In this document: positions 11,064 to 40,423 of the stretch, piece by piece
Layout: every line of letters starts with the position of its first letter
Position numbering within the stretch: position 1 is the first letter of the stretch
Source: an uncultured Actinomycetes bacterium
Lineage (GTDB): Bacteria; Actinomycetota; Thermoleophilia; UBA2241
Reading direction: 5' to 3'
Assembly: GCA_963725665.1 (NCBI GenBank)
Contig: CAVRZA010000003.1
Coordinates: forward strand, 234,894 to 298,893
Length of the DNA stretch: 64,000 bases
Notes under the pieces: generated by a model
What the model saw: the letters and a program-made list of their open reading frames with translations, nothing else
What the model was told of the DNA's origin: nothing
Databases searched by the model: none
Position numbers and translations under genes: made by a program

Positions 11064-12473
11064 GTGGCGAGAACTACCAAGGCCCTGCCCGAGCGCATGA
11101 CGGTGTTTCATGCCTGGGAGCGCGCGCGGAGAGGTCCCAAGGTCGACGAGAAGACGTGGGATTTCGAGGTCATCCCCAAGACGGCGACTCGTCTGAAGGA
11201 GAAGTACGGGATCAAGATGGACAAGAAGGTCATGATCCCGACCGATCCCGACATCATGAAGCGGCTCTACGAGGCCGGCCTCGAGATGCTCGTCGAGACC
11301 GGCGTGTACATCATCGAGACCGGCCGTGTCGTGAAGTACACCAAGGATGAGGTGCTCTTCACCGTTGCTCAAGCGCCGAAGCACGCCATCATCGGCGAGG
11401 GGGCACTGCACTACCGGCCGCTCGTACCGAGGGCGTGGAACAGCACGACGCCGCCGATCATCCAGGGCGGCCCGACCGGCGCGCCCTGCAGCGAGCAGCA
11501 CTTCCTCGGCATCCACGAGTCGTACGCCAAGGAAGGCATCGTCGACTGCATCGTCGACGGCGTGCTCGAGAAGATCAACGGCTACAACCCGGCCCCGGAG
11601 AGCCCCGCCGAGGTGTGGGCCTCCAAGCAGGAGATGTTCCTGGTCCGCCAGGCCCAGGCCAAGGCCTGTCGCTTAGGGATGGGGTTGTAGGGCGCCGAGA
11701 CGCCTCTCGGGGCGGCGGCCATCGTTGCAGCCGATTTTCCCGGCGGCATGCGGGCCACTGACAACCACGAGGTGTCCCAGCTTAATGAGCTGAAGATGGA
11801 AGCCGGAGGCTGGCAATTCGTCGCTCATTACGCACTAGCTGGCGACATCATCATGGATGAGCAGATGCCCATTTTCGGCGGCTTTGCCGGTGGTCTCGAG
11901 GAGACGACCATCGTCAACGTTGCCACCCACCTCAACGCCTTCGTCATGAACCAGGCGACCTGGCACCTCGACGGACCCGTCCACATGCGCTGGGGCAACA
12001 CCACCGCCAGGGAGGTTCTGGCAGTGGCCGGCCACGGCCAGCGGGCGATCGAGGAGCATTGGCCGGATCTCATGACGGGCAACCAGTACTACCCCACCGC
12101 CGGCCCGGGCACCGTGATGTGCCTGCTAGAGACGGCGGCGCAGGCCATCACCGACACCTGCAGCGGGCGCGAAGTGGTGTCGGGCGTCGCGTCGGCCAAG
12201 GGCGTGAAGCTCGACAAGACCACCGGCCTGGAGGCGCGCTTCATGGGCGAGGTCTGCCACGCTGTGGCCGGCATGCCCCTGGACCAGATCAACGAGATCC
12301 TCGATGCTCTGGTGGCCAAGTACGAGGGTGACTACCTGACGGCGGATGAAGGCAAGACCTACGCCGAGTGCTACGACACCGACAAGGTCGTCCCCAACGA
12401 TGAGTACCTGGCAGTGTACGACGAGGCCGTTGCGATCATGAAGGATCTCGGCGTCAGCTACAAACTGTGGTAA
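11064..12473 (+). CDS. mtmB: Monomethylamine:corrinoid methyltransferase MtmB, pyrrolysine at TAG 11688-11690 (469 aa read-through, Pyl209)
   Basis: ORFs 11064..11690 and 11748..12473 are in frame; the junction reads GMGL-TAG-GAETPL...DNHEVSQLNELK, matching MtmB GMGV-O-GPETSL...DSHEVSQLNELK; QGGPTG and EQMPIFGG also present. Confidence 0.96.
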
Positions 12474-12586
12474 AGGAGCATGTGACTTCAGGCACGGCGA
12501 GGATGCAGGTGTTCTGGTCTGGAACAAGCTCCGCCTCGCCGCGCGGACATCGCCCCGGAGGCCGAGATCGAGGAGGCAAGTGAGCA

Positions 12587-13231
12587 ATGGCAAACGAGGA
12601 GTTGATCAAAGAAGCGCGTGCGGCGCTTCTTACGACCGACAAAGCCAAGGCTGAGGACGTCGCCAAACGAGCCATAGCCGCAGGCATGGATCCGGGCGAT
12701 ATCATGCAGAATGGCTTCGTCGCCGGCATCCGTGAGCTCGGCGAGAAGTTCGACAAGGGCGAGGTCTTCCTGCCCGAGTTGATGCTTGCGGCCGAGGCCA
12801 TGGAAGCCGCCATGGAGATCTGCAACGCGGCCCTGCCCGAGGGCAAGAGCGAGACACGCGGTGTCGTCGTCATCGGCACCGTGGAGGGCGACGTGCACGA
12901 CATCGGCAAGGCTGTCGTGATCGCCTATCTGCGCGCCAACGGGTACGACGTCCATGACGTCGGGAAGGACGTGCCGCCGCAGGACTTCATCGACAAGGCG
13001 GTTGAGGTCAACGCCGACGTCATCGGCGCGAGCGCTCTGCTGACGGCCACGCTGGCCGTGCAGGGCGAGATCGAGGAGTACCTCAAGGAGGCCGGCCTAC
13101 GCGGCAAGTTCAAGACGATCGTGGGCGGTGCCACCTGCACGCAGGGCTGGGCCGACAAGATCGGAGCCGACGCGTACGCGAAGGATGCCAGCGACGCGCT
13201 GCAGAAGATCGGCGAACTCGTCGGACGCTGA
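12587..13231 (+). CDS. mtmC: Cognate corrinoid protein (MtmC-like)
   Basis: GEVFLPEL cap, GTVEGDVHDIGK B12-binding motif, SALLT, VGGA, IGADAY; directly after mtmB. Confidence 0.9.
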   Translation: MANEELIKEARAALLTTDKAKAEDVAKRAIAAGMDPGDIMQNGFVAGIRELGEKFDKGEVFLPELMLAAEAMEAAMEICNAALPEGKSETRGVVVIGTVEGDVHDIGKAVVIAYLRANGYDVHDVGKDVPPQDFIDKAVEVNADVIGASALLTATLAVQGEIEEYLKEAGLRGKFKTIVGGATCTQGWADKIGADAYAKDASDALQKIGELVGR

Positions 13232-16990: not shown

Positions 16991-18383
16991 TGGCAGCTGA
17001 AGCGCCTGCGGTCACCGCCGCAAGACCGAAGCGCCTGAGCCTGCTGCGCGTCCTCGGCCCCTGCACATCTGGGGTCTCGGCGTGGGCATCGTGCTCGTGG
17101 GCGAGTTCATGGGTTGGAACTTCACGGTGGCCAAGGGCGGAGTGTTCGGCGCGCTCGTCGCCTGCTGGTTCAGCGGCATCCTCTACTCCTGCGTCGCCAT
17201 GATCGACTCCGAGGTGAGCTCGACGGTGGCCTCGGCCGGTGGCCAGTACGCGCAGGCGAAGCACATCCTCGGCCCCTCGGCCGCCTTCAACCTGGCTCTG
17301 TTCATCATCTTCGAGTACGTGATGCTCGAGGCCGGCGACGCCATCGTGATCGGCGCCATCATGGAGAAGCTCAGCGCGAACTTCAGCGCGACGGCCTGGG
17401 TCATCCTGACCATCGCCATCCTGTCGTTCCTCAACTACCGCGGCGTGACGTTGGCGCTGACCGTCAACTACATCATCACGGCCATCGCCTTCATCACGAT
17501 CCTCCTCCTCCTCTTCGGGAACTGGGGGAACTTCTTCACCCAATACCTATTCACGGCCGATATCGGCGGCAGGAATCCCGAGATGCCGTACGGCTGGCTC
17601 GGCATCCTCGCCGCGCTGCAGTTCGGCATCTGGTATTACCTGGGCATCGAAGGCACCTGCCAGACGGCTGAGGAGTGCCGCTCCGCTCCGCGCGCGCTGC
17701 CGATCGGCACGATGTCTGGGCTCGTCACGCTGCTGATCGCCGCCACCATCACCTGGTACGTCGCTACCGGCCTGGTCGACTGGGTGACGCTCGGATCATC
17801 GGCGTACCCGCTCTACGACGCGGCGCTGAACACGAGTAAGGACTGGCTCATCGTGGCGCTGTTCATCGGCACTGTGTTGAGCTGTCTGGCGTCGGCTAAC
17901 GGCTGCATCAACGACGCCTCGCGGGCCTGGTTCGCCATGGGACGCGACCAGTTCGTGCCGCGCTTCTTCGGCGGCGTGCACCCGCGCTACAAGACGCCGT
18001 ACCGCTCGATCCTGTTTCTGATCCCCATCGCCATGGCCTTCGGGTACACGGGGTTGCTCGACCAGGTGATCACCTTCTCGATCATCTCGGGCTGTTTGAT
18101 ATACGCCGTCATGCCCCTCAACATCATCCGTTTCCGCAGGCTCTATCCGATGGGCTCCATCAGGCGGGGCTACGTCTACCCCTTCCATCCCTGGCCGGCG
18201 TTCGTGCTCGCTCTCTTCGTAGCGCTCACGTTCATCGCCGTCTACTTCGGCTACTGGCGCAACCTGGTCGGGGCCATGGCCTTCTATATCCTCGCCTCGA
18301 TCTGGTTCACCTTCCACCGCTACAGGATGGTGGATCGCTCCAAGCTCTACACCATGCCCTGGCCGCGGCCTAAGGGATACTGA
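16990..18383 (+). CDS. APC-family amine permease (MtmP/ethanolamine-permease-like), 1-nt frameshift near 17062
   Basis: LLRVLGP then HIWGLGVGIVLVGEFMGWN, WYYLGIEG, AEEC, HPRYKTPYR; many TM helices. Confidence 0.88.
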
Positions 18384-18409
18384 GGATCCGGCCGGCAAGG
18401 GAGGGCAGG

Positions 18410-18865
18410 ATGTTCGAGACGATACTAGTAGCAACAGATGGCTCGCACTCGGCGGGGAAGGCCGTCGACTTCGCGGTGGAGCTCGCCAAGAGCCATGGTT
18501 CCAAGCTCGTGATCTGCACCGTCACACGAGAGCGGCTGGCGACGATCGACAGGGACCCCGGCGAGCCCAATCCGCCCGACGTCGACCCGAGAGCATCGCT
18601 GAGTCGCGGTCAGGCCGACCAATCGGCGGAGGTTCTGCGCCGAGGCGAGCAGGCGGCCAAGGCAGCGGGCCTGGGGAACTACGATCTGCGCGAGATCTAC
18701 GGCACGAACACAGGCGCCACCATCGTGAAGGAAGCCGAAGCGATGGGAGCCGACCACATCGTCGTCGGCTCTGTCGGGGAGACCGGCCTCGCCAGGCTGC
18801 TCATGGGTTCCGTGGCGGCGAGCGTGGTGCATCACGCCCACTGTCCGGTGACGGTGGTGCGGTAA
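18410..18865 (+). CDS. Universal stress protein
   Basis: ILVATDGS...LMGSVAASVVHHAHCPVTVVR. Confidence 0.93.
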   Translation: MFETILVATDGSHSAGKAVDFAVELAKSHGSKLVICTVTRERLATIDRDPGEPNPPDVDPRASLSRGQADQSAEVLRRGEQAAKAAGLGNYDLREIYGTNTGATIVKEAEAMGADHIVVGSVGETGLARLLMGSVAASVVHHAHCPVTVVR

Positions 18866-20277: not shown

Positions 20278-22130
20278 GTGAATGCAGAGGTGTCACCTCC
20301 GCACGACGCAGGGGACACCTCCGGTAACCCAGATCCCAGGCGGATCGCCCCATTCCTGTCTCACCACCCGCTTCTCGAGGGCCTTAGCCGTGACGATCGC
20401 GAGAGAATGGCCGAGATGGTCGTCGTGCGTTGCGTGCCGGCGGGCGAGTCGGTCCTCGTCGAGGGCGGGCCGCCAGGTACGTATCTCTTCGTCGTCGTGG
20501 AAGGGTCGATGGAAGTCCTGGCCGGGGGCCTTGTCGTCGACGTGCTGACGAGTGGGGAGGTGTTCGGCGCCCCGACCCTGGTCACGGGTCTTGCCCCAGG
20601 GTTCTCGGTTCGCGCGCGCGAAGGCTCGACGTTGTATCTCGTCCCTCGAGAGGCGGCGATCGAGCTGCTCCTTCGCCCTGAGGGGGTCGCATTCGTGGTG
20701 GCGTCCTTGCGAGACCGGCTCGTTCACACCTCGCGGACGTTCAGATCGGTCGCCGACCCGCGGAGCGTTCCCGTTTCTTCTCTCATCCGTCGCGCGCCTG
20801 TCATCTGCCAGGCCGACACGCCCATTCGCGACGTGGCCATGATCATGAGCCAGGAGGTCGTAGCCGCTGTCCTCGTGGAGACCCGCCAGGGTCTCGGCAT
20901 CGTCACCGACGCCGATCTGCGCGACAGAGTACTGGCCGCTGGATTGTCGGCGCATGCTCCGGTCGGCTCGATCACGACCACTCCGGTCCGCACCATCAGC
21001 GCCGAGCGCCTGGCGCCCGAGGCGAGCATCGAGATGATGCAAGCCGGCATCAACCATCTGGTCGTCATCGATGCCGCTGGTGGCGTGCTCGGCATCGTTT
21101 CGGCCGGCAGCCTGATGGCCCCCGATGCGCTGAGCCCCTTCGCTCTGCGCTGGTCGATCCTGGCTGCACGCAGCGTAGACGAGGTCGTCGAGGCGGCCAT
21201 CCGTCTGCCAGAGGTGTTCGTCTCACTCACCGACCAGCACCTAGACGCCCCGACGATCTTGCGCGTGGTCACGCTGGTGGTCGACACGCTTACGCGCCGC
21301 TTGCTCGAACTCGCCGTCCGGCAGCTGGGACGGCCGTCTGTTCCCTACGCTTGGCTTGCTCTCGGCAGCGCCGCGCGCAGCGAGCTCACCCTCGTCTCCG
21401 ACCAGGACAACGCGCTGGCCTATGCCGACTCGGACGACCCCTCGGTCGACGCGTACTTCGAGCGACTGGGAGAGGCGGTTAACGATGGCGTGGCACGCTG
21501 CGGCTTTGCGGCCGATCAGTCGGGAGTGCTGGCTCGAGATCCGCACTGGCGCATGTCCCGGTCCGACTGGGTGCATGTCTTCCAGGAGTGCTACGACGTG
21601 TGGGACTGGGAGCACGCAGCGCGGGCCTGCGTGGCCTTCGACTTCCGCTGTATCGACGGCGATCTGGACATCGTGACCCCTCTGACCGAGGTCGTGCTGA
21701 GGGCTCCCGACCATCCCGCGCTGTTGAACCGGCTCGCCCGTTCGGTGGTCGATACACGTTCGCCCCTCGGCTTCCGCCAGCACTTGCCCGATCGGGTTGA
21801 CATCAAGAGGAGCGCTCTGCTGCCAATCGAGAACATCGCGCGCTACTTCGCGCTTGCGAATCGGATCACCGTGCCGGCGACGTTGGATCGTCTCACCGCC
21901 GTGGAGGAGCTGGCCATTCTCGAGACCGAGATAGTGATCGCCCTGCAGGAGGCCTACCGCGCCATGGCTCACCTCCGGCTGCGCCACCATGCAGACGCCA
22001 TCGAGAGGGGCGACGCGTTGACGACACCATTGACACGACTACGCTACAGCCGTTGGCACGCGTGGAAGTGCACGAGGCACTGCGGCTGATTGCGGCCGCC
22101 CAGAAACGGGTGCCACTCTACGTGACGTGA
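20278..22130 (+). CDS. cNMP-binding/CBS/DUF294 putative nucleotidyltransferase, copy 1 (frameshift near 22010)
   Basis: cNMP domain (GEVFG), CBS pair (GIVTDADLR), WLALGSAARSELTLVSDQDNAL, DIKRSALLPI. Confidence 0.88.
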
Positions 22131-22274
22131 GGTCGAACGGCCCTCGCTGGCGGTCGGTGATGCATCCCTTGTCGCAAGTCCGGGCTCGAGGATGCCCGCG
22201 ATGTGGCGAGGGGTCGACGCCAGGGTAGACTCAAGATCGCGGCGGCTCCGCGCGAGCGCCCTCCAGTAGCGGGA

Positions 22275-24165
22275 GTGAGTCATGGCCACAGAACGGCCAG
22301 CCGAACAGCGCGACGAGCGCATCGCCTTCTGCTCGACGACGTGCGGCGGATAGCGATCTTCCTGTCGCGAGTGCCTCCGTTCAACGGACTCAACCGGCGC
22401 GAGCGCGAGCGGATAGCCGCCTCGGTCGAGAAGTGGGAGCTGGCGCCGGGAAGCGTCCTCCTCGTCGAAGGCGGCCCGCCGGGCACCCGTCTGTTCGTCG
22501 TCTTCGACGGTGTCCTCGAGCTGACGACCAGGGGACAGGTGATCGACGTCGTCACGAGTGGCGGTCAGTGGTGGGTCACCCGAGCTCTCGTCACCGGTCT
22601 CGCGCCCGAGTTGACGGTGCGGGCTCGCGACCAGGTCGTTCTTTACGCGATCCCTCGGACGATCGCCATCGACGTGCTCAGCCGCCCGCAGGGGGTCGCC
22701 TTCGTGACCGGCACTCTGCGCGAGCGGCTCGTGCGCACGGCGCAAATGATCGAATCGGCTTCTGACCAGACGAGCGGCCCGTGTCGTCGCTCATCCGCCG
22801 CCCCCCGTGATCTGCAGCCCCGATACCCCGGTGCGCGAGGCGGCGCGAGATGATGAGCGCCCAAGTCGCAAGCGCCATTCTCGTCGAGACACGCGAGGGT
22901 CTCGGCATCGTCTCCAACGCCGACTTGCGCGACAAGGTCGTCGCCCTCGGCGTCTCTCCCGACACTCCCGTCAGCTCGATCATGACGACGCCTGTGGTGA
23001 CCGTACGCGGCGACCAGCTCGCGACGGAGGCCGGCATCGAGATGATGCGCGCGGGGATCAACCACCTGGTGGTCGTCGACGCGCGCGAACGTGTGCTCGG
23101 AGTCATATCGGCTGCGAGCCTGATGAGTACGGATGCGCCAGCCCGCTGGTCTTGCGCTCGGCTATTACCGCGGCTCACGATGTGGAGGAGGTCGTTGAGG
23201 CGGCGAAGCTCATGCCACAGGTCTTCGTCTCACTCGTCGATGCGCGTCTCGATGCACCGAGCCGTCTCGCGCATCATCACTCTGCAGAGCGACTCGCTAA
23301 CGCAACGTCTTGCTGGAACTCGCCATCGAACGTCACGGTCCGCCGCCTACGCCTTTCGCCTGGCTTGCCCTCGGCAGCGGAGGACGCGGTGAGCTGACGC
23401 TGGCCTCGGACCAGGACAACGCTTTGGCGTACGCGGACTCCGACGACCCGGAGGTCGACTCCTACTTCGAGGGTCTGGCCGCCGACGTCAACGGAGGCTT
23501 GGCTCGCTGCGGGTTCGAGCTCGACGTCTCCGGAGTGCTGGCGAGCGACCACCACTGGCGCATGTCGCGATCGGACTGGGTCAGGGTCTTCAGGGAGTGC
23601 TTTGAGGTCTGGGATCTCGAGCACACGCTGCGAGCCAGCGTTGCCTTTCGATTTTCGCCAGGTCGCCGGTGATCTCGACGTCGTCACTCCGCTCGTGGAG
23701 GTGCTTCTCGATGCGCCAGACCATCCTTCGCTCCTCAACAGGGTCGCGCGGACAGTGACCGACATCCGCTCGCCGCTCGGCTTTCGGCAGCGTCTGACGG
23801 GACCAGTCGATATCAAGAAGAGCGCGCTTCTGCCCATCGAGAACATGGCTCGCTACTTTGCGCTCGCCAACAGGGTGACCGTCTCTGCCACTCTCGACCG
23901 TCTCTCCGCCGTGCAGGAGCTGGGCGGTTTCGGGGCGACGACGGCTGCCGAGCTGCCCGAGGCATACCGGGCGGTGTGGAACCTGCGGCTGCGCCATCAC
24001 GCCAATGCCGTTCGCGCCGGTCGTCGCATCGACGACGCCATCGACTCGACCCAGCTTCGCCCACTGACGTACGCGGAGCTGCAGGAGGCCCTGCGGGTCA
24101 TCGCGTCGGCTCAGAAGCACGTGCCCGAGATCGTAATGCCGAGAGACATGGAGCGGATGGCGTAG
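22275..24165 (+). CDS. cNMP-binding/CBS/DUF294 putative nucleotidyltransferase, copy 2 (several frameshifts; error or pseudogene)
   Basis: Colinear paralog of copy 1 spread over several frames: GIVSNADLR, WLALGSGGRGELTLASDQDNAL, DIKKSALLPI; start uncertain. Confidence 0.8.
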
Positions 24166-24485
24166 CGCGCCCTTGCGAGCGTACGTGGGCCGCAGCTCGC
24201 ATGTGGCGGCGTTTGTGATTCAGGTGACATAATGGCTGCACTGAGTCGCGGACTCCGGTTTCCCGATCCGGGCTGGCGCCGGTCGGTGTCCACCTTGCAG
24301 GGTGGGACGACGCTTAGCACGGCGGCGGGAGGCTCGTTAGGTGAAGGTGCCATCGACACGCCGGCAGAACGGCTCGACGCACTCGAGCTGACCGCGGGCA
24401 CGGCCTCGGTCGGCCGCCGCCCCACCCACCTCCTTAGCGAACCAGTCACCCCGGGCTCTACTTACGCAACGGAGGTGTGACCTAA

Positions 24486-25886
24486 GTGAGCAAGATACTG
24501 ACCCGCATGGGGGACGGCAGCTTCGTCGAGCTGACGCCCGACGAACTTCGTGCAGACATCGTCGCGGCTACCGAAGATGCGGCCGACAAGGGCAAGATCC
24601 CTCCCTTGCAGGACGACGAGATCGACAAGCTCGTCGAGATATTCTCCGCGCCGTGGCGCGTGATCGGGGTCGAGCCTGGTCACGAGGTTCCCCTCACCAA
24701 GGATGAGACGGCGTGCACCCTTGTTTCATCGCAGCTGTCGAGTGGCGCTCACCTGCCGATCAGCCGTGAGGCGGCGGTCGAGATCTTCGAGCGCGTGTTC
24801 GCCTTCGACACCATGGAGCTGGGCTGGATCGACTACTCCTTCAAACCGGCGAAGGCGATGGTCTCGCTCGACCAAGTGTCGATCGAGCGCCTGCTCGCTA
24901 CGACGGTCTTCCCGGTTCTCTACGGCGCGATGCCCAACATGGGCCTCTACTACACGCCGGACGGGCCTTTTACGAACCCCGCCGATCTGCTCGGCATGAT
25001 GAAGATCGCCGAGGCGCGCGAAGAAGAGATGAAGGCCGCCGAGATGTGCATGGAAGACATGATCTACATGTGCAAGCGCTTCGATGAGATCGGCGCCGAC
25101 GGCATCGACTTCGATACGACCGCATCGGCCGGCGACGCCGACTTCTGGGCGACGCTGAAGACCGTCGAAGAGCTCAAGAAGACGACCAAGCTGGGCATCG
25201 AGGTCGGCATGTCCGGCGAGTTCATCCTCGGCATGCACGGCGAGGTCGAGTACAACGGCAAGAAGCTCGCCGGCATGTTCCCGCACCAGCAGCTCAAGGT
25301 CGTGGAGGAGGCCGGCGCCGACATCTTCGGCCCGGTCGTCAACACCAAGACCAACAAGTCGGCGCCGTGGAACGTCGCTCGCGCCGTGACCTTCGTGAAG
25401 GAAGTCTGCAAGCAGGCCAAGATCCCGATCCACGCCAACGTGGGTATGGGCGTGGGCGGCACACCCATGTTCGAGACACCGCCGGTCGACGCCCTTAGTC
25501 GAGCCAGCGTGGCGATGGTCGAGATCGCCAAGGTCGACGGGTTGTAGGTTGGCGTGGGCGATCCCTTCGGGATGTCCGTAACTCACGCGATTGCCTCCGG
25601 CATGGGTGGCATTCGTACCGCTGGAGATCTGGTGGCGCGGATGCAGCTCAACTACCGGATGAGGCTCCCCGAGGCGAAGAAGTACGTCGCCGACAAGCTT
25701 CACGTGAGCACCTTCGACCTGTCGGATTCGACCGTCATGCGCAACCTGCGCGAGGAGCTCGATATCGGCTGCGTCGAAGCCATCCCCGGCCTCGCCAAGG
25801 GGCTGGCGGCGAAGGCTCGCATCGCCGATCTTCTCGATATCAAGATCGAGTGCGTCGAGAAGCTCAAAGCGAAGATGCCGGCCTGA
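24486..25886 (+). CDS. mtbB: Dimethylamine:corrinoid methyltransferase MtbB, pyrrolysine at TAG 25545-25547 (466 aa read-through, Pyl354)
   Basis: TRMGDG N-terminus, [11 protein letters not shown]; junction [22 protein letters not shown]...AGDLVARMQ matches MtbB VDGI-O-IGVGDPLGM; the two halves are in frame. Confidence 0.96.
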
Positions 25887-25941
25887 CGCGCAAGGCGAGA
25901 GCCCCAGGGTTGACGCAATCCGATTGTTGGAGGTCACAGGC

Positions 25942-26586
25942 ATGGCAAACGAAGAGTTCTTCGCCGAGGCAAACGCGGCGATCAAGGCGTGCGACAAGGA
26001 GAAAGCCATCGCTGCCGCCAAGCGCGGGCTGGCGGCGGGCATCCCGCCCGACGAGATGCTGAAGAAGGGCTTCGTCGTCGGCATCTCTGAGATGGGCGAC
26101 CTTTTCGAGCGCGGCGAGGTTTTCCTTCCGGAGCTCGTCCTTGCGGCCGACGCCATGATGGGCGCCGCCGAGGTGTGCAACGCGGCGCTGCCCGAGGGCA
26201 AAGGCGAGAAGAAGGGCACCGTAGTCATCGGGACCGTTCAGGGAGACGTGCACGACATCGGCAAGACGATCGTCGTCGCGTTCCTGCGCGCGAACGGTTA
26301 CGACGTTCACGACCTCGGCCGCGACGTCGCGGGCGCCAAGTTCATCGACAAGGCCGCCGAGGTCAACGCGGACGTCGTCGGCATGAGCGCTCTCCTGACG
26401 ACCACCATGCGCGAGCAGATCAGGGTGCTCGATGCAATGAAGACGGCCGGCGTGCGCGACAAGTACAAGGTCATCGTCGGCGGCGGCGCATCGACCCAGA
26501 AATGGGCCGACAAGATCGGCGCCGATGCTTACGCGGAGGACGCCAACGACGGCGTGAAGAAGATCAACGAGCTCACCGGCAACTGA
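25942..26586 (+). CDS. mtbC: Cognate corrinoid protein (MtbC-like)
   Basis: GTVQGDVHDIGK, SALLTTTM, IGADAYAEDA; follows mtbB; close paralog of 12587..13231. Confidence 0.9.
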   Translation: MANEEFFAEANAAIKACDKEKAIAAAKRGLAAGIPPDEMLKKGFVVGISEMGDLFERGEVFLPELVLAADAMMGAAEVCNAALPEGKGEKKGTVVIGTVQGDVHDIGKTIVVAFLRANGYDVHDLGRDVAGAKFIDKAAEVNADVVGMSALLTTTMREQIRVLDAMKTAGVRDKYKVIVGGGASTQKWADKIGADAYAEDANDGVKKINELTGN

Positions 26587-26612
26587 CCGGTCGGTCCGGT
26601 CGGATGACGAGC

Positions 26613-26651
26613 GGCGCGGCCCGAGGCGAGAGTCTCGCCTCGGGCCGCGCC
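26613..26651 (+). terminator. Hairpin after mtbC
   Basis: Perfect 18-bp inverted repeat GGCGCGGCCCGAGGCGAG / CTCGCCTCGGGCCGCGCC. Confidence 0.65.
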
Positions 26652-26958
26652 CGTGGACGGTGGGCAAGGCGCCATTTCGGGGACTGGAGGCGCAGGTCGG
26701 GTGCTGGAGGCTCGAGCGGTCGGTGGCCTGGAGATACGCGTTGTCCCTAGGCACTCCCTTCTGTACAGTTCCGCAAAGGAGAGCGCTCCAGGGGGTCGAA
26801 GGACATCGGCTGAGTGGCGATCGAGCGATCGACCGAGCGAGGGCTCGAGTGTCGAGGAAGGGAGATCATCCAGGACGAGTAGCGTGAGCTAGGCCGCTGA
26901 CACACGGCCGTTACCAGCTGTTGGTGTAGTTGTGACATTCGACCAGGGGGAACAGCCA

Positions 26959-28608
26959 ATGGCAGAAGACCAAAGCTCCGAACGGTGGCAAACGTCGGAT
27001 GTGACCGACAAGTACCTCTCCGAATACTCGGACGAGTACAAGCAATCGCGTTTCAAGACCAACATGCGCCGCGACATCAGCTGGGTCGGCGCCTTCTTCG
27101 TCGCCGCCGGCGTGCCGGCGCTCATCTTGTTCTCGATGGGCGGCATCTCGGCCGGCACCGGGCCGGTGGCCGTGCTCGTGTGGACGCTCTCTGTGCTGGT
27201 CGGCTTCGTCGACGCCTTCATCTTCGCCGAGATCGCGGGGCTGCACCCGAAGAAGTCGGGCGGTACCGCCGTGCACGGCGCCACCGCCTGGATCCGCTAC
27301 ATCAGGCCGGCGGCTCCGATCTCGCTGTGGTGCAACTGGCTCGCCTGGACGCCGGTGCTGGCACTCGGCTCCGGTCTCTGTGCGGGGTACCTGCTGTCGG
27401 TCTTCTTCGCTCCAGACGCCACGATCAACACGTGGACGATCGACCTCGTCAATCTCAATTTTCTCAAGAGTGGGCTGGAGCTGCGCATCAACGCCGTGTT
27501 CATCCTCGGCGCGCTCATCATGCTCGCGGTCTGGAACATCCAGCACTACGGCATCCTGCGCACTGCGCGCGTGCAATTGGTGCTCACGATCGGGGCGATG
27601 ACGCCGCTGCTGGTGCTGACCCTGGTCCCGCTGTTCACCGGCGATGTGGTGATGAGCAACTTCTCGCCCTTCGTGCCCGTCAACGGCTCGTGGAACATCG
27701 ACGGCTGGACGGCGTTCCTGGGCTCCTTCTTCATCGCCGCCTGGTCGGCCTACGCCTTCGAGACGGCCATCTGCTACATGAGCGAGTTCAAGAACCCCGG
27801 GCGCGACCAGGCCAAGGCCATCCTCTGGTCGGGTGTGTTCTGCATCTTCTGCTACACCTTGATCCCGTTCGTCTGGCAGGGCGTCCTGGGCACCGACTAC
27901 ATGCTCAAGCCCGAGATCTACTCGGGAGCCGGCGTTCCCGCGGGCTTCGCGGCCATGTTCAACTTCGGCGCTTGGTTCACGAAGTTCTGCGCCATTGCCA
28001 TGTTCTTCACCGTGATGCTCTCGGTGATGACGGCCATGTCCGGCTCGTCCCGCACGCTGTTCCAGGGCGGCCAAGACGGCTGGCTGCCAAAGTACCTCTC
28101 GCACCTCAATGAGCACAAGGTGCCGACCTGGGCCATGTGGACCGACCTCGTCTTCAACCTCTTCCTGCTGCTGATGTCGGACTACGTCTTCGTGCTCGCC
28201 GTCTCCAACTGCAACTACATGATCTTCAACTTCCTCAACCTCAACGCCGGCTGGATCCACCGCAAGGACAACTCCAGGGTTCCGCGGCCCTTCAAAGCTC
28301 CGATGCCGCTGTTCGTGCTGGGAACGAGCTTCGCCTACCTGAACATCTTTCTGTTCGGGGCCGGCGCGAACTTCTGGGGCGCGGGCACGTTCTGGATGGG
28401 ATGGATCTCGGCCCTGATCGCACTGCCGGTCTTCTACTACCGGCACTACGTCACAGACAAGGGCAAGTTCCCGGTGCACATGTTCGACGACCTCATCCCT
28501 GAGGGAGAAACGGCGCTCGGACCGACCACGTGCGGTGTGCTGCCCTACGTCGCCATAGCCGGCGGCCTGGCGTGCATGACCATCGGCTACGTGATCTTCT
28601 GGGTCTGA
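26959..28608 (+). CDS. APC-family permease, probable dimethylamine permease (MtbP-like)
   Basis: GAFFVAAGVP, AEIAGLHPKKSGG, WSAYAFETA, DGWLPKYL; multi-TM; directly after mtbBC. Confidence 0.88.
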   Translation: MAEDQSSERWQTSDVTDKYLSEYSDEYKQSRFKTNMRRDISWVGAFFVAAGVPALILFSMGGISAGTGPVAVLVWTLSVLVGFVDAFIFAEIAGLHPKKSGGTAVHGATAWIRYIRPAAPISLWCNWLAWTPVLALGSGLCAGYLLSVFFAPDATINTWTIDLVNLNFLKSGLELRINAVFILGALIMLAVWNIQHYGILRTARVQLVLTIGAMTPLLVLTLVPLFTGDVVMSNFSPFVPVNGSWNIDGWTAFLGSFFIAAWSAYAFETAICYMSEFKNPGRDQAKAILWSGVFCIFCYTLIPFVWQGVLGTDYMLKPEIYSGAGVPAGFAAMFNFGAWFTKFCAIAMFFTVMLSVMTAMSGSSRTLFQGGQDGWLPKYLSHLNEHKVPTWAMWTDLVFNLFLLLMSDYVFVLAVSNCNYMIFNFLNLNAGWIHRKDNSRVPRPFKAPMPLFVLGTSFAYLNIFLFGAGANFWGAGTFWMGWISALIALPVFYYRHYVTDKGKFPVHMFDDLIPEGETALGPTTCGVLPYVAIAGGLACMTIGYVIFWV

Positions 28609-28693
28609 GAGCCGCAATGTAGCGCGCCGGCCGTGCGGCCGTCGCCGGCCTGCGGAGCGGCCGGCGACGGTTGGGCTAGACGGCGCAACAAGA

Positions 28694-28732
28694 GGGGCCG
28701 CGGCGGAGGCGAAGAGCCTCCGCCGCGGCCCC
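28694..28732. terminator. Bidirectional hairpin between convergent genes
   Basis: Perfect 17-bp stem, GAAGA loop. Confidence 0.65.
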
Positions 28733-28758
28733 CACGTCTTGGGGCGCCGTTTCGCGGC

Positions 28759-29199
28759 CTAGACGACGAGGACCGGGATCCCTCCCGCCTCGTGGAGCAC
28801 CCTGGACGTCGTCGAACCCAATTGGGTCCGTTCGCCCTCACGAGCGCCCGCGCCCTTGGCACCGACGACGATCATGTGGGCGCCGATATCTTGAGCTATG
28901 TTGACCACCGCCACGTCGGGCCGGTCGGGGGTGCAGGCAGTCGCCACTGCGACCCCGGCCTCTCGGACTCGTCCCGCAGCCAGATCGAGCTCGGCTTCGA
29001 TCTGTTTCGAGACCTCGTCCCACAGCTCCTCGACCCCCATCTCTGGGCCGCGGAACCCGATGGCCGGTGCGGGACGATCCTGCGCGCAGGCGATCGTGAT
29101 CTGGCCGTCGGGCATCAACTTGGCGATCTCGACGGCGGTGTCGAGAGCTTTGATCGAGTTCGCAGAGCCGTCGTATCCAACAACGATGTTGTAGGCCAT
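28759..29199 (-). CDS. Universal stress protein
   Basis: IVVGYDGS...MIVVGAKG...LGSTTSRVLH..IPVLVV. Confidence 0.92.
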   Translation of the reverse strand: MAYNIVVGYDGSANSIKALDTAVEIAKLMPDGQITIACAQDRPAPAIGFRGPEMGVEELWDEVSKQIEAELDLAAGRVREAGVAVATACTPDRPDVAVVNIAQDIGAHMIVVGAKGAGAREGERTQLGSTTSRVLHEAGGIPVLVV

Positions 29200-29331
29200 C
29201 CCGCTTCCCCCTTGGTCCCAGATGTATGCGCCAACCTATACCCGGCCCAGCCGTACGGCAATCGAAGGAAGGTCTCAACCTCCTCGGGCAGCATGAGTCG
29301 TCGTGGCCGTCAGCCCTGGCCGGGATGCAGG

Positions 29332-30135
29332 CTACTCCAAGAGCCCGGCGCGATGAGCCTTGAGGTAGTTGCCGCAGTAGGGGTCCTCGCCGCGCAGCGC
29401 CTCGGCGGCCTTGATGGTGGCCAGCATCTCCTTGTTGCGCACGTCGAGCACGGCGCCGTCGATGCCCAGGCCCATGCACATGGCGACGAAGGTGCGGTTG
29501 AGCAGGGGGCGGTTGGGCAGGCCGAAGCTGACGTTGGAGAGGCCGCCGATGGTGCGCACGGGGAGGCGCTCCTTGACCATCCTTAGGGTCTCCATGGTGA
29601 TCACGCCGGCGCTGGAGTCGGCCGAGACGGTGAGCACCAAGGGATCGACCCAGAGCTCGGCGGCGGGCAGGCCGGCGGCGGTCACCAGCTCGTGCATCTT
29701 GGCCGCCACGGCGAAGCGCTCGGCGGCCGTCGCGGGCACGCCCTCGTCGGAGAGGCAGAGGCCCACCACGGAGCAGCCGTGGGCCTTTATCATGGGCAGG
29801 GCGGCGTCGATGCGCTTCTGCTCGCCGCTGATGGAGTTGATGAAGGGCACCTGGCCACCGCCGGCGAGGGCCGCCTCGACGCCGGCCCGTAAGGCCTCGG
29901 GGCTGGCCGAGTCGACCATGAGGCGCCGCTGCGAGACGCTGCGCACCGTCTCGATGAGCCAGCGCATGTCGGCCACCTCGTCGCCGCCGGCCACGCCGGC
30001 GTTGACGTCGAGGACCGCGGCGCCCGCCTCGTCCTGCTCTCGCGCGAGGCCCTTGATGAACTCGGCGTCGCGCGCCGAGATGGCCTCGCCCACCTGCTTA
30101 CGTGTACCGTTGATCGATTCACCCACGAGCAGCAT
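29332..30135 (-). CDS. Pterin-binding methylcorrinoid:tetrahydrofolate methyltransferase (AcsE/MeTr-like)
   Basis: [44 protein letters not shown]; GGAGG RBS. Confidence 0.92.
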
Positions 30136-30292
30136 CTTCCAGGACCTCCACGTACGAAGCCGGTGTGTGAGAGCTGATTCTAACCCTCGCGGCGACCGAG
30201 ACAACCGGTTGGCCGCCTCAGTGGGCCTTTTGCGCCCGTTGGGCAAGTCTGCTACAGTATCCGCCGCGTTTCGTCCCGAGAGAGGCCCTCAC

Positions 30293-30637
30293 GTGACCGT
30301 CATCGACAACATCGAGCGTCAGCAGCTGCGCGACGACATTCCGCAGTTCAAGGCCGGGGACACGGTCAAGATCCACTTCCGCGTTGTCGAGGGCAGCCGG
30401 CAGCGCACGCAGATCTTCCAGGGCATCGTGATCAAGCGCCAGGGCGCCGGCGTGCGCGAGACGTTTACCGTGCGCAAGCAGTCGTTCGGCGTCGGCGTCG
30501 AGCGCACCTTCCCGCTGCATTCACCCAAGATCGAGAAGATCGAGGTCGTCATGATCGGCGACGTGCGACGGGCGAAGCTCTACTACCTGCGCCAGAAGGT
30601 CGGCAAGCAGGCGAGGGTCCGCGAGAAGCAGCGCTAG
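30293..30637 (+). CDS. rplS: 50S ribosomal protein L19
   Basis: [10 protein letters not shown]...[21 protein letters not shown]...[10 protein letters not shown]. Confidence 0.98.
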
Positions 30638-30675
30638 TGGCCCCGTCCTCGGCGAGCCACGCACTCTAGAGCAAC

Positions 30676-31242
30676 GTGAGACGCAACGCGTTCGTCGACT
30701 ACGGCATCATCGCCGTCGTCGCCATCGCGCTCGCTCTGGGCATCCAGGGCTTCGTCGTCAAGCCGTACCGCATCCCGTCGCCCTCGATGAACGACACCCT
30801 GCTGCCGGGCGACCGGGTGCTCGTGAACCGCCTCCTCTACCACTTCCGTGACCCGCGGCGTGGTGACATCGTCGTCTTCACGTGGCCGGTCAACCGGAAA
30901 TACGTGTTCATCAAGCGCGTCATCGGCGTGCCCGGCGACACGATCTCGCTGGAAGGCGTGAGTGTCTACGTCAATGGCAGGCCGATCAGTGAACCCTACG
31001 TGCGCAAGGTCGACGGGGTGGCGGTACCCACCGAAGCGGCACCGGCGACCGCGGGCACAACGATGAGTCAGCCGTGGTCGTTGCAGCAGCCGTACAAGGT
31101 CCCGGCGGGTCAGTACTTCGTCATGGGGGACAACCGCACCGAGAGCGACGACAGCCGCGACTGGGGGCCGGTGCCGTCCGGCGACCTCATCGGTGAGTCC
31201 TTCATGATCTACTGGCCGCTCACTCGCATCCGCCTGATCTAG
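30676..31242 (+). CDS. lepB: Signal peptidase I
   Basis: IPSPSM, FIKRVIG, MGDNRTESDDSR. Confidence 0.95.
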   Translation: MRRNAFVDYGIIAVVAIALALGIQGFVVKPYRIPSPSMNDTLLPGDRVLVNRLLYHFRDPRRGDIVVFTWPVNRKYVFIKRVIGVPGDTISLEGVSVYVNGRPISEPYVRKVDGVAVPTEAAPATAGTTMSQPWSLQQPYKVPAGQYFVMGDNRTESDDSRDWGPVPSGDLIGESFMIYWPLTRIRLI

Positions 31243-38090: not shown

Positions 38091-39703
38091 GTGCCGGTAG
38101 TCAGCATGAAGGAGCTGCTGCAAAGCGGCGTCCACTTCGGCCACCAGACCCGCCGTTGGAACCCCAAGATGAAGCCCTACATCTTCACCGAGCGGGGCGG
38201 CATCTACATCATCGATCTGCAGAAGACGAGCGCGCTTCTCGACGAGGCACACGACTTCCTGCGCAACATCGCCGAGCGGAACGGCACGGTGCTCTTCGTA
38301 GGCACCAAGAAGCAGTGCCAGGACTCCATCAAGGAGGAGGCCGCGCGCGTCGGCATGCCTTACGTCGCGACGCGCTGGCTGGGTGGCCTGCTGACCAACT
38401 TCGCCACGCTCTCGAAGCGCATCCGGCGCCTCCACGAGCTGCGCAAGCTGGTCGAGGACGGCTCCCTCGACGTCTTGCCGACGCGCGAGGCGATGCGCAT
38501 GCGCGGCGAGCTCGAGAAGCTCGAGACCAACCTCAGTGGCGTGGCCGACATGGACCGCCTGCCCGACGCTGTGTTCGTCATCGACCCGCGCAAAGAGGCC
38601 ATCGTCGTGCGCGAGGCGAACAAGCTGAAGATCCCCATCGTGGGCCTCGTCGATACGAACTGCGACCCCGACGAGATCACCTACGTCATCGCCGGCAACG
38701 ACGACGCCATCCGTTCCTGCTCACTCATCGTGCGCGTGGTCGCCGAGGCTGTGGCCGAGGGCAAGCAGAAGGTCGCCGAGGCCGAGTTCCGCGCCGCCGC
38801 GGCCGCGGCCGCCGAGAAGCCCGAACCCGCGCTTGCCGACGCGCTGGGTGAGGGTGAGGCGAAGCCGGTCGAGTCACGTGCCGCGCGCCCCGACCGTCCG
38901 CCAGTGAGGACCGACCGTCCGCCCGCGAGGACCGACCGTCCGCCCGCGAGGACCGACCGTCCGCCAGTGAGGACCGACCGTCCGCCTGTGCGGAGCGACC
39001 GTCCGCCGTGAGGACCGACCGTCCGCCCGCGAGGACCGACCGTCCGCCCGCGAGGACCGACCGTCCGCCCGCGAGGACCGACCGTCCGGGTGCGCGATCC
39101 GACCGTCCGCCCGCGAGGACTGACCGTCCGGCTGGTCCTCGGCCCGAACGACCGGCACCGCCCAGGGAGGCGCCGCCGGCGGCCGCCAAGCCGGCCGAGA
39201 AGGCCGCTGCGCCACCCGAGAAGGCCGCCGACGCCCCTGCTTCGGCACCTGTGAAAGAGCCGGCTGCGGAGGTCAAGGCGACCGAAGCTGTCGAGGCGAC
39301 CGAAGTTGTCGAGAAGGCGACCGAAGCGGCGACTGGCGCTCAGAAGCCGGCCAAGGCGACGGACGAGAAGCCCGAGATTGCTCCGGCGCCCGCCTCCGAG
39401 AAGCCGGCTGAGTCGACCTCCGAGAAGCCGGCTGAGTCGACCCACAAGAAGGCCGAGGCCGCTGCCGCCGAGAAGCCTGCTGCCGAAGCCACTGAGAAGC
39501 CTGCCGCCAGGGCGGCCGCGAAGAAGGATGAGTCTACCGTCGCCGAGAAGCCGGCCGCAAAGGCGAGGGCGAAGAAGGCTGCGCCGGCCGCCGAGGCTGT
39601 CGCGGCGGAGTCAGAGGCAGAGGCGGTCGGCGATCCGCCGGCAGACGCGCCCGAGGCCGTCGAGGCCGCGGACGCGTCGGCGGCGGAAGCGAGCGACAAG
39701 TAG
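38091..39703 (+). CDS. rpsB: 30S ribosomal protein S2 with long low-complexity C-terminal extension (1-nt frameshift near 39007)
   Basis: [39 protein letters not shown]; the repeat peptide continues across the frameshift. Confidence 0.93.
38892..39130 (+). repeat. About 11-12 copies of a 21-bp repeat (DRPPART)
   Basis: GACCGTCCGCCCGCGAGGACC units with minor variants. Confidence 0.92.
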
Positions 39704-39820
39704 CAGCCGGCACACCGAAGAGCTGCAGCCGCCACACCCGGGCGACGGGGCTACGCGGCTGACGAGAAGGCAAGGCAACCGGGCTTCGGGCCCGTACGAC
39801 CACAGAAGCGAGTTGATGAC

Positions 39821-40423
39821 ATGGCAGATATCAGCGCGAAGACGGTTAAGGAGCTCCGCGAGAAGACCGGGGCCGGCATGATGGACTGCAAGCAGGCCCT
39901 CGCCGAGACAGGCGGCGACTTGGAGAAGGCGGTCGACTCTCTGCGCCAGAAGGGCCTTGCCGCGGCGCAGAAGAAGAGCTCCCGCGTGACCAAGGAAGGG
40001 GCGATCGACTCCTACATCCACGCCGGCGGCAAGATCGGCGTGCTGGTCGAGGTCGGCGTCGAGACCGACTTCGTCGCGCGCAGCGACCCGTTCAAGGAGT
40101 TCACGCACGACCTGGCCATGCAGGTGGCGGCGTCGAACCCGCTTTGGGTGGAGCGCGAAGAGGTGCCCGACGAGGTCATCGAGCGCGAGAAGGCGATCTA
40201 CCGCGAGCAGGCCAAAGGCAAGCCCGACAACGTCGTCGAGAAGATGATCGAGGGCAAGCTGAGCAAGTTCTACGCCGATGTCTGTCTCATGGAGCAGCCG
40301 TTCGTCAAGGATCCCGACCGCACCGTCGAGCAGTTGCGCACCAACCTCGTCGGCATCATCGGCGAGAATGTCGAGGTGCGCCGTTTCGTGCGCTTTCAGC
40401 TCGGCGATAGCTCCGAGGACTAA
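39821..40423 (+). CDS. tsf: Elongation factor Ts (short form)
   Basis: VKELREKTGAGMMDCK, ETDFVA. Confidence 0.97.
   Translation: MADISAKTVKELREKTGAGMMDCKQALAETGGDLEKAVDSLRQKGLAAAQKKSSRVTKEGAIDSYIHAGGKIGVLVEVGVETDFVARSDPFKEFTHDLAMQVAASNPLWVEREEVPDEVIEREKAIYREQAKGKPDNVVEKMIEGKLSKFYADVCLMEQPFVKDPDRTVEQLRTNLVGIIGENVEVRRFVRFQLGDSSED

What the first reader, a model, noticed from the sequence alone, without database searches (positions are those of the whole stretch)
24486..25886. mtbB with in-frame amber codon at the pyrrolysine position
Seen: [16 protein letters not shown], giving a 466-aa read-through with TAG at codon 354. Established: MtbB has Pyl at about residue 356 in VDGI-O-IGVGDP. Two independent TAGs at the expected positions in unrelated genes make sequencing error implausible even in this noisy assembly.
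Basis: partly seen in the sequence, partly recalled or inferred. Interest (0 to 1): 0.88.

Follow-up and report, generated by a model that had tools for sequence, protein, structure and literature searches.

The report
Pyrrolysine-coding dimethylamine methyltransferase gene, Thermoleophilia
This is a real, intact gene for a dimethylamine methyltransferase whose internal UAG "stop" codon encodes the 22nd amino acid pyrrolysine, in an uncultured high-GC soil or peat actinobacterium; the gene type is well known, but this lineage and the codon placed just before the UAG have hardly been studied.

Summary
Window 24486-25886 (+) is one 466-codon frame with a single TAG at codon 354 (25545-25547), in [16 protein letters not shown].

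- Both halves match MtbB models end to end.
- TAG sits in the same column in 44 of 46 related loci and in all 8 mtbB copies of this genome.
- The genome holds pylSc, pylSn, pylBCD and a tRNA-Pyl(CUA).
- Contigs from other public runs cross the TAG.

The host is an uncultured Thermoleophilia (Actinomycetota). PylSc was found in 73 of 79 sampled genomes of its family. Around mtbB lie mtbC, a methylamine-type permease and a methyl-THF:corrinoid methyltransferase, with mtmB (TAG)/mtmC upstream.

TAG is not reassigned. It ends about 37% of crudely called ORFs, including rplS and lepB, and RF1 is present. The Rfam PYLIS_2 hit shows no covariation.

One new point: the Leu codon before the Pyl-TAG is always the rare TTG. 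That is 10 of 10 in this genome across three gene families, and 413 versus at most 9 for CTN across 81 family genomes.

This scan has already found Pyl-mtbB in other Thermoleophilia genomes, and Actinobacteriota Pyl-mtbB expression was published in 2023. Verdict: a new member of a known kind.

The parts
24486..25886 (+). mtbB, dimethylamine:corrinoid methyltransferase, 466 codons including one UAG (Pyl); GTG start, TGA stop
25545..25547 (+). In-frame TAG, codon 354, read as pyrrolysine
   Evidence: the Pyl column is invariant in alignment A2
25542..25544 (+). TTG (Leu) codon directly 5' of the Pyl-TAG. It is a rare Leu codon in this genome but is fixed at this site.
24471..24475 (+). GGAGG Shine-Dalgarno-like motif 10 nt before the GTG start
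   Evidence: read from the sequence
25545..25644 (+). Match to Rfam PYLIS_2 (RF02509), 89.3 bits. Best explained by conserved coding sequence; the RNA structure is not supported.
   Evidence: match; no fold excess, no covariation
25942..26586 (+). mtbC-like cognate corrinoid protein (ATG 25942 after GGAGG; the listed ORF starts at TTG 25924)
   Evidence: (TIGR02370 223.1 bits, cut-off 215.3; MtbC model NF041607 221.8 bits, below its cut-off of 350)
26932..28608 (+). APC-family permease of the methylated-amine type (matches the trimethylamine N-oxide permease model)
   Evidence: AA_permease_2; NF053774 747.8 bits, cut-off 690
29332..30246 (-). Pterin-binding methyltetrahydrofolate:corrinoid methyltransferase, the candidate second methyltransferase (corrinoid to THF)
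   Evidence: (NF005719 294.2 bits, cut-off 259)
11064..12473 (+). mtmB, monomethylamine methyltransferase, with one in-frame TAG at 11688-11690 (codon 209), also preceded by TTG
12587..13231 (+). mtmC-like corrinoid protein
17082..18865 (+). Amino-acid/ethanolamine-type permease (17082-18383) and universal stress protein (18410-18865). They lie between mtmC and mtbB, as in 5 related Thermoleophilia loci.
20278..24165 (+). Putative sensor or regulator genes upstream of mtbB: a cNMP-binding/CBS/DUF294 nucleotidyltransferase (20278-22089), a weak cNMP-binding ORF (22203-22853) and a DUF294_C protein (23602-24165). Any role in mtbB control is inferred only.
   Evidence: similar genes lie near mtbB in L024 and L030

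Best explanation
Window 24486-25886 is a functional mtbB gene of an uncultured Thermoleophilia actinobacterium. Its codon 354 (UAG) is decoded as pyrrolysine by the genome's own tRNA-Pyl(CUA). That tRNA is charged by a split PylRS (PylSc + PylSn) with pyrrolysine made by PylB, PylC and PylD.

The full-length 466-residue enzyme is a predicted TIM-barrel-like protein with Pyl in a barrel strand. It takes a methyl group from dimethylamine and puts it on the Co(I) corrinoid of the adjacent MtbC. The neighbouring pterin-binding methyltransferase then passes the methyl group to tetrahydrofolate. The monomethylamine left over is handled by MtmB (also UAG-containing) and MtmC, 11 kb upstream. Methyl-THF can enter a Wood-Ljungdahl-type pathway, since an acetyl-CoA synthase gene is present. 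RamA-type activases elsewhere in the genome would keep the corrinoid reduced.

UAG keeps its stop meaning in this organism, so decoding at codon 354 is a competition between Pyl-tRNA and RF1.

Shown here: gene identity, the TAG position, conservation, presence of the whole Pyl machinery, the neighbouring genes, and the dual use of TAG. Inferred: the substrate (by homology), the methyl route to THF, conditional expression, and any role of the UUG codon before the UAG.
For: - Family match of both halves: PF09505 and TIGR02368 at 560.7 bits against a cut-off of 369.1.
- TAG in the same column in 44 of 46 related loci and in 8 of 8 copies in this genome.
- Pyl machinery in the same assembly: PylSc 314.6 bits (cut-off 178.15), PylSn 119.9 bits, PylB 448.3, PylC 338.7 and PylD 211.6 bits, all over their cut-offs. 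tRNA-Pyl(CUA) with a 6-bp anticodon stem lies directly downstream of pylD.
- The trait is lineage-wide, which argues against a binning artefact. PylSc is in 73 of 79 sampled genomes of the same family, and the mtbB TAG motif is in 74 of 81.
- Neighbours: corrinoid protein, permease and methyl-THF:corrinoid methyltransferase.
- Elsewhere in the genome: 2 RamA-type activase matches and an acetyl-CoA synthase CdhC domain at 213.8 bits.
- Contigs of three other runs, one of them an RNA library, bridge 25545-25547. The listed differences lie at 25550 and 25553, both third codon positions, and none lies at the TAG.
- AlphaFold2 model: mean pLDDT 86.7, pTM 0.89, with residues 352-355 in a strand.
- Tree: the window copy sits in a 12-row Thermoleophilia clade (SH-aLRT 100), and the other copies in this genome are its sister lineages.
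Against: - There is no protein-level evidence. Nothing here shows that Pyl, rather than termination, occurs at codon 354.
- TAG ends 947 of 2544 crudely called ORFs, including rplS, lepB, ffh, ftsY, dxr and ispG in this window. RF1 is present at 489.9 bits. A 353-residue truncated product must therefore also be made to some extent.
- No cis element for targeted insertion is supported. The PYLIS_2 structure has a covariation score of 0.082 against a shuffled mean of 0.092 (481 of 500 shuffles at least as high), and the fold z-score is only -1.46.
- The substrate is assigned by homology alone. There is no solved MtbB structure to compare with: 0 PDB sequence matches, and Foldseek returns only generic TIM barrels with TM about 0.3.
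- The pyl genes lie on another contig (C6) than the window (C3), in a MAG with 5% estimated contamination.
- In one search, 161 further differences were not displayed, so identity at the TAG in those contigs is likely but not strictly proven. The RNA-library contig does not prove transcription.
Confidence: 0.9

Rival explanations
1. The enzyme is a genuine Pyl protein of the MtbB family, but this copy, like some of the other seven in the genome, acts on a methylated amine other than dimethylamine.
For: The genome holds 8 mtbB copies that have diverged to about 50% identity, 31 MttB-family matches and 4 MtmB-family loci (6 match rows). That breadth suggests substrate diversification. The adjacent permease matches a trimethylamine N-oxide permease model best. 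The adjacent corrinoid protein is below the cut-off of the specific MtbC model (221.8 bits against 350).
Against: The window copy passes the equivalog model TIGR02368 (560.7 bits against 369.1). It is the copy conserved at 86-92% identity across Thermoleophilia genomes. It sits with mtmB/mtmC, which would take the monomethylamine product.
Confidence: 0.12
2. The TAG is a true stop. The locus is a split or decaying gene that yields a 353-residue fragment and perhaps a separate 110-residue ORF (25554-25886).
For: TAG is a common stop in this genome and RF1 is present. A GTG-started ORF at 25554-25886 is listed mechanically.
Against: The part after the TAG stays in frame and matches profile positions 356-462 at 2e-46. 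TAG is kept at this exact column in 44 of 46 loci across bacteria and archaea and in about 413 sites of 74 family genomes. The full Pyl machinery is present.
Confidence: 0.03
3. The TAG is a sequencing or assembly error of a noisy long-read assembly.
For: The assembly does contain frame errors.
Against: All 8 paralogues, 13 close orthologues and contigs from other sequencing runs have the same TAG.
Confidence: 0.01
4. UAG is reassigned genome-wide to pyrrolysine, as proposed for some archaea, so the mtbB TAG is only one of many sense TAGs.
For: A preprint title and abstract seen in a search listing (10.1101/2024.09.30.615893) report such a code in archaea. The Pyl machinery is complete here.
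Against: TAG ends 37% of crude ORFs. It ends conserved genes directly after their Pfam domains: rplS, lepB, ffh, ftsY, dxr and ispG. There is no nearer back-up stop after TAG than after TGA (median 48 against 43 codons). RF1 is present.
Confidence: 0.01

Closest known systems
MtbB of methylotrophic methanogens (Methanosarcina barkeri MtbB1-3, recalled; here represented by Methanolobus vulcani L063 and Methanomassiliicoccales MAG loci)
   Same: Same family (PF09505/TIGR02368) and same length. The single in-frame UAG is in the same alignment column (codon 355 there, 354 here). A cognate corrinoid protein lies next to the gene.
   Different: Only 48-52% identical. The host is a high-GC bacterium. 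The gene order is mtbB then mtbC, instead of mtbC then mtbB. The methyl acceptor downstream is probably THF, through a pterin-binding methyltransferase, rather than coenzyme M (no MtrH match).
Bacterial Pyl-MtbB of Bacillota, Desulfobacterales, Nitrospirota and Gaiellales MAGs (L033-L038, L062)
   Same: 58-61% identical, with the same TAG column and the same TTG (once TTA) codon before it. They are the nearest clade outside Thermoleophilia in the tree.
   Different: They form a separate clade, with the corrinoid gene upstream rather than downstream.
Actinobacteriota MAGs of Stordalen Mire reported to express Pyl-encoding mttB and mtbB (Ellenbogen et al. 2023, PMC10805028; passages read)
   Same: Same phylum, same gene type, and a peat or wetland setting like the runs that hold this sequence.
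   Different: In the passages I read, that paper identified Pyl genes by truncation at the amber codon. Those passages do not describe the pyl machinery, copy numbers, TAG stop usage or codon context. Its supplements were not opened.
Bacterial pyl gene clusters of Desulfitobacterium hafniense and Acetohalobium arabaticum (contiguous pylT-pylSc-pylBCD-pylSn; recalled, not tested)
   Same: Split PylRS (PylSc + PylSn), as in all bacteria surveyed in PMC9630628 (passage). TAG remains a frequent stop.
   Different: Here the genes are dispersed on contig C6: pylSc at 296212-297084 (+), pylSn at 298938-299198 (-), and pylB-pylC-pylD-pylT about 45 kb away at 343702-347001 (-), with pylT after pylD.

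Membership tests
MtbB, dimethylamine:corrinoid methyltransferase (PF09505 / TIGR02368) | Full-length match above the curated cut-off | tested here: met
   TIGR02368 560.7 bits against 369.1, residues 6-463. PF09505 matches on both sides of the TAG.
MtbB, dimethylamine:corrinoid methyltransferase (PF09505 / TIGR02368) | Single in-frame UAG at the conserved pyrrolysine column | tested here: met
   Codon 354 aligns with the TAG of 44 of 46 loci, including a cultured methanogen.
MtbB, dimethylamine:corrinoid methyltransferase (PF09505 / TIGR02368) | Adjacent cognate corrinoid protein | tested here: met
   25942-26586: TIGR02370 223.1 bits against 215.3. The narrower MtbC model is not reached (221.8 against 350).
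MtbB, dimethylamine:corrinoid methyltransferase (PF09505 / TIGR02368) | Dimethylamine-dependent methylation of the corrinoid; Pyl detected in the protein | not testable with these tools
   Needs biochemistry or mass spectrometry.
Pyrrolysine-decoding organism | tRNA-Pyl(CUA), PylRS and PylB, PylC, PylD encoded in the genome | tested here: met
   All protein models are over their cut-offs. The tRNA has a CUA anticodon, a 6-bp anticodon stem and a short variable loop.
PYLIS cis-element (Rfam RF02509 PYLIS_2) | Score above the gathering threshold | tested here: met
   89.3 bits against 36.
PYLIS cis-element (Rfam RF02509 PYLIS_2) | A conserved RNA structure supported by compensatory changes or by folding energy beyond composition | tested here: not met
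   On 52 sequences, 72.8% of cells are paired against 73.2% in shuffles, and the covariation score is 0.082 against 0.092. The fold z-score is -1.46. I do not file this as a functional PYLIS.
Genome-wide UAG-to-Pyl code | UAG not used as a terminator; RF1 lost or idle | tested here: not met

The most novel reading that the evidence does not exclude
In this actinobacterial family the meaning of UAG is biased locally by the codon just before it. The rare Leu codon UUG (about 5% of Leu codons) is fixed immediately 5' of the Pyl-UAG in three unrelated gene families, and a G follows the UAG. The P-site tRNA-Leu(CAA), or the UUG-UAG-G sequence itself, would favour Pyl-tRNA over RF1. That would let an organism in which a third of genes end in UAG make full-length methylamine methyltransferases. 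It would be the first sequence cue for targeted pyrrolysine insertion. A 2025 PNAS paper (PMC12626013, passage read) states that no such mechanism is known in any organism.
Probability: 0.2. Interest if true: 0.72.

Novelty: new member of a known kind. Interest (0 to 1): 0.42.

Why it matters
The gene itself is textbook. Four points about its setting are worth more attention.

1. A whole uncultured family of Thermoleophilia appears to decode pyrrolysine. PylSc was found in 73 of 79 sampled species genomes, plus 9 of 61 in a second family. A 2022 survey counted only two actinobacterial PylRS genomes (PMC9630628, passage).

2. These bacteria carry large sets of methylamine methyltransferases. 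This genome has 14 UAG genes, and the family sample averages about 5 mtbB sites per genome. They also have a route to methyl-THF, so they probably compete with methanogens for methylamines in peat and wet soil. That bears on methane budgets.

3. Standard gene callers will split every one of these genes.

4. The organism keeps UAG as a very common stop, and it fixes a rare UUG codon in front of each Pyl-UAG that follows a leucine. This makes it a natural system for asking how ambiguous UAG decoding is managed.

Tried and rejected
- PYLIS hairpin. The Rfam match is strong, but I reject it as evidence of structure: there is no covariation on 52 sequences and the fold energy is not exceptional.
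- Solved structures. There is no PDB sequence relative. A Foldseek search with the AF2 model returns only generic (beta-alpha)8 barrels with TM about 0.3, so it adds nothing about mechanism beyond the fold class.
- MtrH-type methyltransferase. No match in the genome (genome 97.5% complete).
- URO-D family. 3 matches. One is probably hemE, and none was followed up as an MtbA-like candidate.
- Promoter and terminator scan of 23500-30700. 1 promoter-like and 1 terminator-like site, no more than in shuffles.
- tRNA and Rfam scans near pylS found nothing. The tRNA-Pyl lies 45 kb away, next to pylD.
- Screen for further Pyl proteins by coding-like sequence after TAG. 133 candidates, mostly the next gene falling in the same frame, so the screen does not discriminate. 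It recovered the known genes only, and I dropped it.
- Test whether true TAG stops avoid TTG. After removing the 10 Pyl genes, 6 of 72 Leu codons before a TAG stop are TTG, against 11 of 89 before TGA. There is no avoidance, which weakens the idea that UUG alone forces read-through.
- One of the six 'MttB with 1 TAG' rows (C1:36714) has its TAG at match codon 12. I do not count it as a Pyl site.
- The apparent long N-terminal extension of EF-Ts (39008-40423 read with TAG as sense) is an artefact of reading through a TAG at codon 232.
- Habitat. The runs holding about half of the sampled words are labelled soil, peat, wetland and freshwater sediment. Only four were laid.

Full report
**Observation.** Window 24486-25886 on the + strand is one reading frame of 353 codons, a TAG, 112 codons and a TGA. 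The TAG is at 25545-25547, codon 354, within [20 protein letters not shown]. The frame opens with GTG at 24486, 10 nt after GGAGG. So is the second TAG gene it mentioned: mtmB at 11064-12473 has its TAG at codon 209, 11688-11690.

**Identity.**
- The two halves match Pfam PF09505 (Dimeth_Pyl) over profile positions 4-353 (7e-145) and 356-462 (2e-46) of 463. The TAG therefore falls exactly in the gap.
- With the TAG read through, NCBIfam TIGR02368 scores 560.7 bits against a cut-off of 369.1.
- No PDB chain is a sequence relative.
- An AlphaFold2 model built on a 24-row alignment is confident (mean pLDDT 86.7, pTM 0.89) and places residues 352-355 in a strand. Foldseek finds only generic (beta-alpha)8 barrels, with TM about 0.3.

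**Is the TAG real and at the Pyl position?**
- A scan of one-genome-per-species contigs gave 46 loci.
- In 44 of them the frame carries one TAG in the homologous motif, at codons 349-355 in the full-length matches. This includes the cultured methanogen Methanolobus vulcani (VDGF-TAG-CGLGDP, codon 355) and many Methanomassiliicoccales.
- The other two, L030 and L032, have frame breaks.
- The window's own assembly (3.73 Mb, 12 contigs, 97.5% complete, 5% contamination) holds 8 mtbB copies, each with exactly one TAG in D-G-L/Y-TAG-V-G-x-G-D.
- Contigs of other public runs bridge the codon: X1 record 6, X2 record 9, and X7 record 31, the last from an RNA library. The listed differences fall at 25550 and 25553, both third codon positions, and none at 25545-25547. 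However, 161 further differences were not displayed, and an RNA-library contig is not proof of transcription.

**Machinery.** All on contig C6:
- pylSc at 296212-297084 (+), 314.6 bits.
- pylSn at 298938-299198 (-), 119.9 bits.
- pylB, pylC and pylD at 343844-347001 (-), scoring 448.3, 338.7 and 211.6 bits. All protein models are above their curated cut-offs.
- A tRNA with anticodon CUA, a 6-bp anticodon stem and a short variable loop at 343702-343774 (-), just after pylD.
- The genes are dispersed rather than in one cluster.

**Host and distribution.**
- The closest MtbB orthologues (86-92% identity) are all MAGs titled Thermoleophilia, one titled Actinomycetes.
- The window is ordinary bacterial chromosome: smc, ftsY, ffh, rimM, trmD, rplS, lepB, rnhB, rpsB, tsf, pyrH, uppS, dxr, ispG. 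GC is 64-75%.
- In a sample of 401 genomes of the class, PylSc is found in 73 of 79 genomes of the window's own family, in 9 of 61 of a second family, and in 0 of 260 genomes of ten other families.
- In a tree of 51 rows, the window copy lies in a 12-row Thermoleophilia clade (SH-aLRT 100). The other own copies are sister lineages (90). A mixed bacterial clade and the Methanomassiliicoccales clade are separate. The tree used 44 loci and 7 own copies; the split eighth copy and L030 and L032 were left out. The Methanolobus row is a long branch, and the root is only a midpoint.

**Neighbourhood and pathway.**
- Downstream of mtbB lie a corrinoid protein at 25942-26586 (TIGR02370 223.1 bits against 215.3) and a permease at 26932-28608 that passes the trimethylamine N-oxide permease model (747.8 bits against 690).
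- On the other strand lies a methyltetrahydrofolate:corrinoid methyltransferase at 29332-30246 (294.2 bits against 259).
- Upstream lie mtmB/mtmC, a second permease, a universal stress protein and cNMP/CBS/DUF294 proteins.
- This roughly 21-kb block sits between trmD (7572-8255) and rplS (ends at 30637).
- Thermoleophilia loci share the order mtmB-mtmC ... mtbB-mtbC. All other bacterial and archaeal loci examined have the corrinoid gene before mtbB.
- Elsewhere the genome has 2 RamA-type activase matches, an acetyl-CoA synthase domain, 31 MttB-family matches of which 5 have a Pyl-position TAG, and one Pyl plus three non-Pyl MtmB-family loci.
- The inferred route is dimethylamine, then methyl-Co(III)-MtbC, then methyl-THF, then the Wood-Ljungdahl pathway. 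It is an inference from gene content.

**How UAG is read.**
- TAG is not reassigned. In a crude GC3-based gene call of 2544 ORFs covering 75% of the genome, the stops are TGA 1455, TAG 947 (37%) and TAA 142. The call is rough and the assembly has frame errors.
- Conserved genes in the window (rplS, lepB, ffh, ftsY, dxr, ispG and the methyl-THF methyltransferase) end in TAG right after their domains.
- Three mtbB paralogues themselves end in TAG.
- There is no nearer back-up stop after TAG than after TGA (median 48 against 43 codons).
- RF1 is present.
- UAG is therefore ambiguous, as described for Methanosarcina (PMC12626013, passages).
- The Rfam PYLIS_2 match (89.3 bits) is best explained by conserved coding sequence. 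On 52 aligned sequences the named structure pairs no better than column shuffles and shows no covariation. The fold z-score is -1.46.

**A context signal.** An earlier scan note on another genome (e1-4162183) said that only the UUG before the UAG looked selected, and I tested this here.
- In this genome's 14 Pyl genes the codon before the Pyl-TAG is TTG 10 times, GCG 3 times and TAC once. All 10 leucines use TTG: 7 in mtbB, 2 in mttB and 1 in mtmB.
- TTG is 28 of 557 (5.0%) of the other Leu codons in the same genes, and 5.9% genome-wide.
- The base after the TAG is G in 14 of 14.
- Four of four Thermoleophilia mtmB orthologues also have TTG-TAG, whereas an archaeal one has CTC-TAG.
- Across 81 genomes of the family, GAYGGN-TTG-TAG-GTNGG occurs 413 times in 74 genomes, with 0 matches of the reversed control. 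The same pattern with CTN occurs 9 times, with 29 control matches, so it is at or below chance.
- Neighbouring third codon positions vary freely in these matches.
- Kin are not independent, and true TAG stops do not avoid TTG (6 of 72 against 11 of 89 before TGA). A functional role is therefore a hypothesis.
- My searches for 'pyrrolysine' with 'UUG' or 'codon context' found no paper describing this (passages).

**Novelty.**
- Pyl-encoding mtbB and mttB expressed by Actinobacteriota MAGs were reported in 2023 (PMC10805028, passages).
- A 2022 survey found PylRS in two Actinobacteria (PMC9630628, passage; restated in PMC11764691).
- A search for 'pyrrolysine' with 'Thermoleophilia' gave one paper, which holds the word only in its reference list.
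- This scan has already reported the same kind of gene in several other Thermoleophilia genomes.
- The finding is therefore a correct catch of a known kind in a little-studied lineage. The lineage-wide extent of the trait, the heavy use of TAG as a stop and the fixed UUG codon are the parts worth following.
- Supplements of the cited papers were not opened and may list these MAGs.

Noticed in passing
window 25542-25547; also 11685-11690; G000 mttB sites: The rare Leu codon TTG is fixed directly before the Pyl-TAG. It is used in 10 of 10 Leu cases in this genome across mtbB, mttB and mtmB, against 5% TTG elsewhere in the same genes. Across 81 family genomes there are 413 TTG sites against at most 9 CTN sites. 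A G follows the TAG in 14 of 14 cases.
   Followed up: yes
window 11064-13231: mtmB with an in-frame TAG at codon 209 (11688-11690), followed by an mtmC-like corrinoid protein.
   Followed up: partly
window 8255-30299: About 21 kb of methylamine genes (mtmBC, two permeases, a stress protein, cNMP/CBS/DUF294 proteins, mtbBC and a methyl-THF methyltransferase) lie between trmD and rplS, which are usually adjacent (recalled). The flanks of related loci differ.
   Followed up: partly
L020-L032 versus L033-L065: Gene order is mtbB then mtbC in the Thermoleophilia clade, but mtbC then mtbB in the other bacterial and archaeal loci examined.
   Followed up: partly
G000 C2:303448-304815, C4:189712-191085, C2:493945-495300: Three mtbB paralogues use TAG both for Pyl inside the gene and, about 116 codons later, as their own stop codon.
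   Followed up: partly
G000 C2:493945-513908 (L067): A cluster of four mtbB copies lies here. Two are in tandem, and one of those is split by a frame break at 505138/505140. Nearby are a non-Pyl MttB-family gene, ABC transporter genes, and CCG-domain and 4Fe-4S proteins resembling heterodisulfide reductase subunits.
   Followed up: no
G000 C11:550041-550138: A tRNA-Sec(UCA) is also present, so the organism may decode both selenocysteine and pyrrolysine. The sel genes were not looked for.
   Followed up: no
G000 C6:296212-299198 and C6:343702-347001: The pyl genes are dispersed. pylSc and pylSn are 1.9 kb apart on opposite strands, and pylB-pylC-pylD-pylT lie 45 kb away with the tRNA gene last. 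A nitroreductase-family gene lies just upstream of pylB.
   Followed up: partly
G000 C6:464091-464705 versus window 29458-30072: A second pterin-binding methyltransferase match has exactly the same score and E-value as the window's copy, so it may be a recent duplicate.
   Followed up: no
G000 whole genome: The repertoire of non-Pyl methyltransferases is very large: about 25 MttB-family matches without TAG and 3 MtmB-family loci without TAG. This suggests broad use of quaternary or other methylated amines.
   Followed up: no
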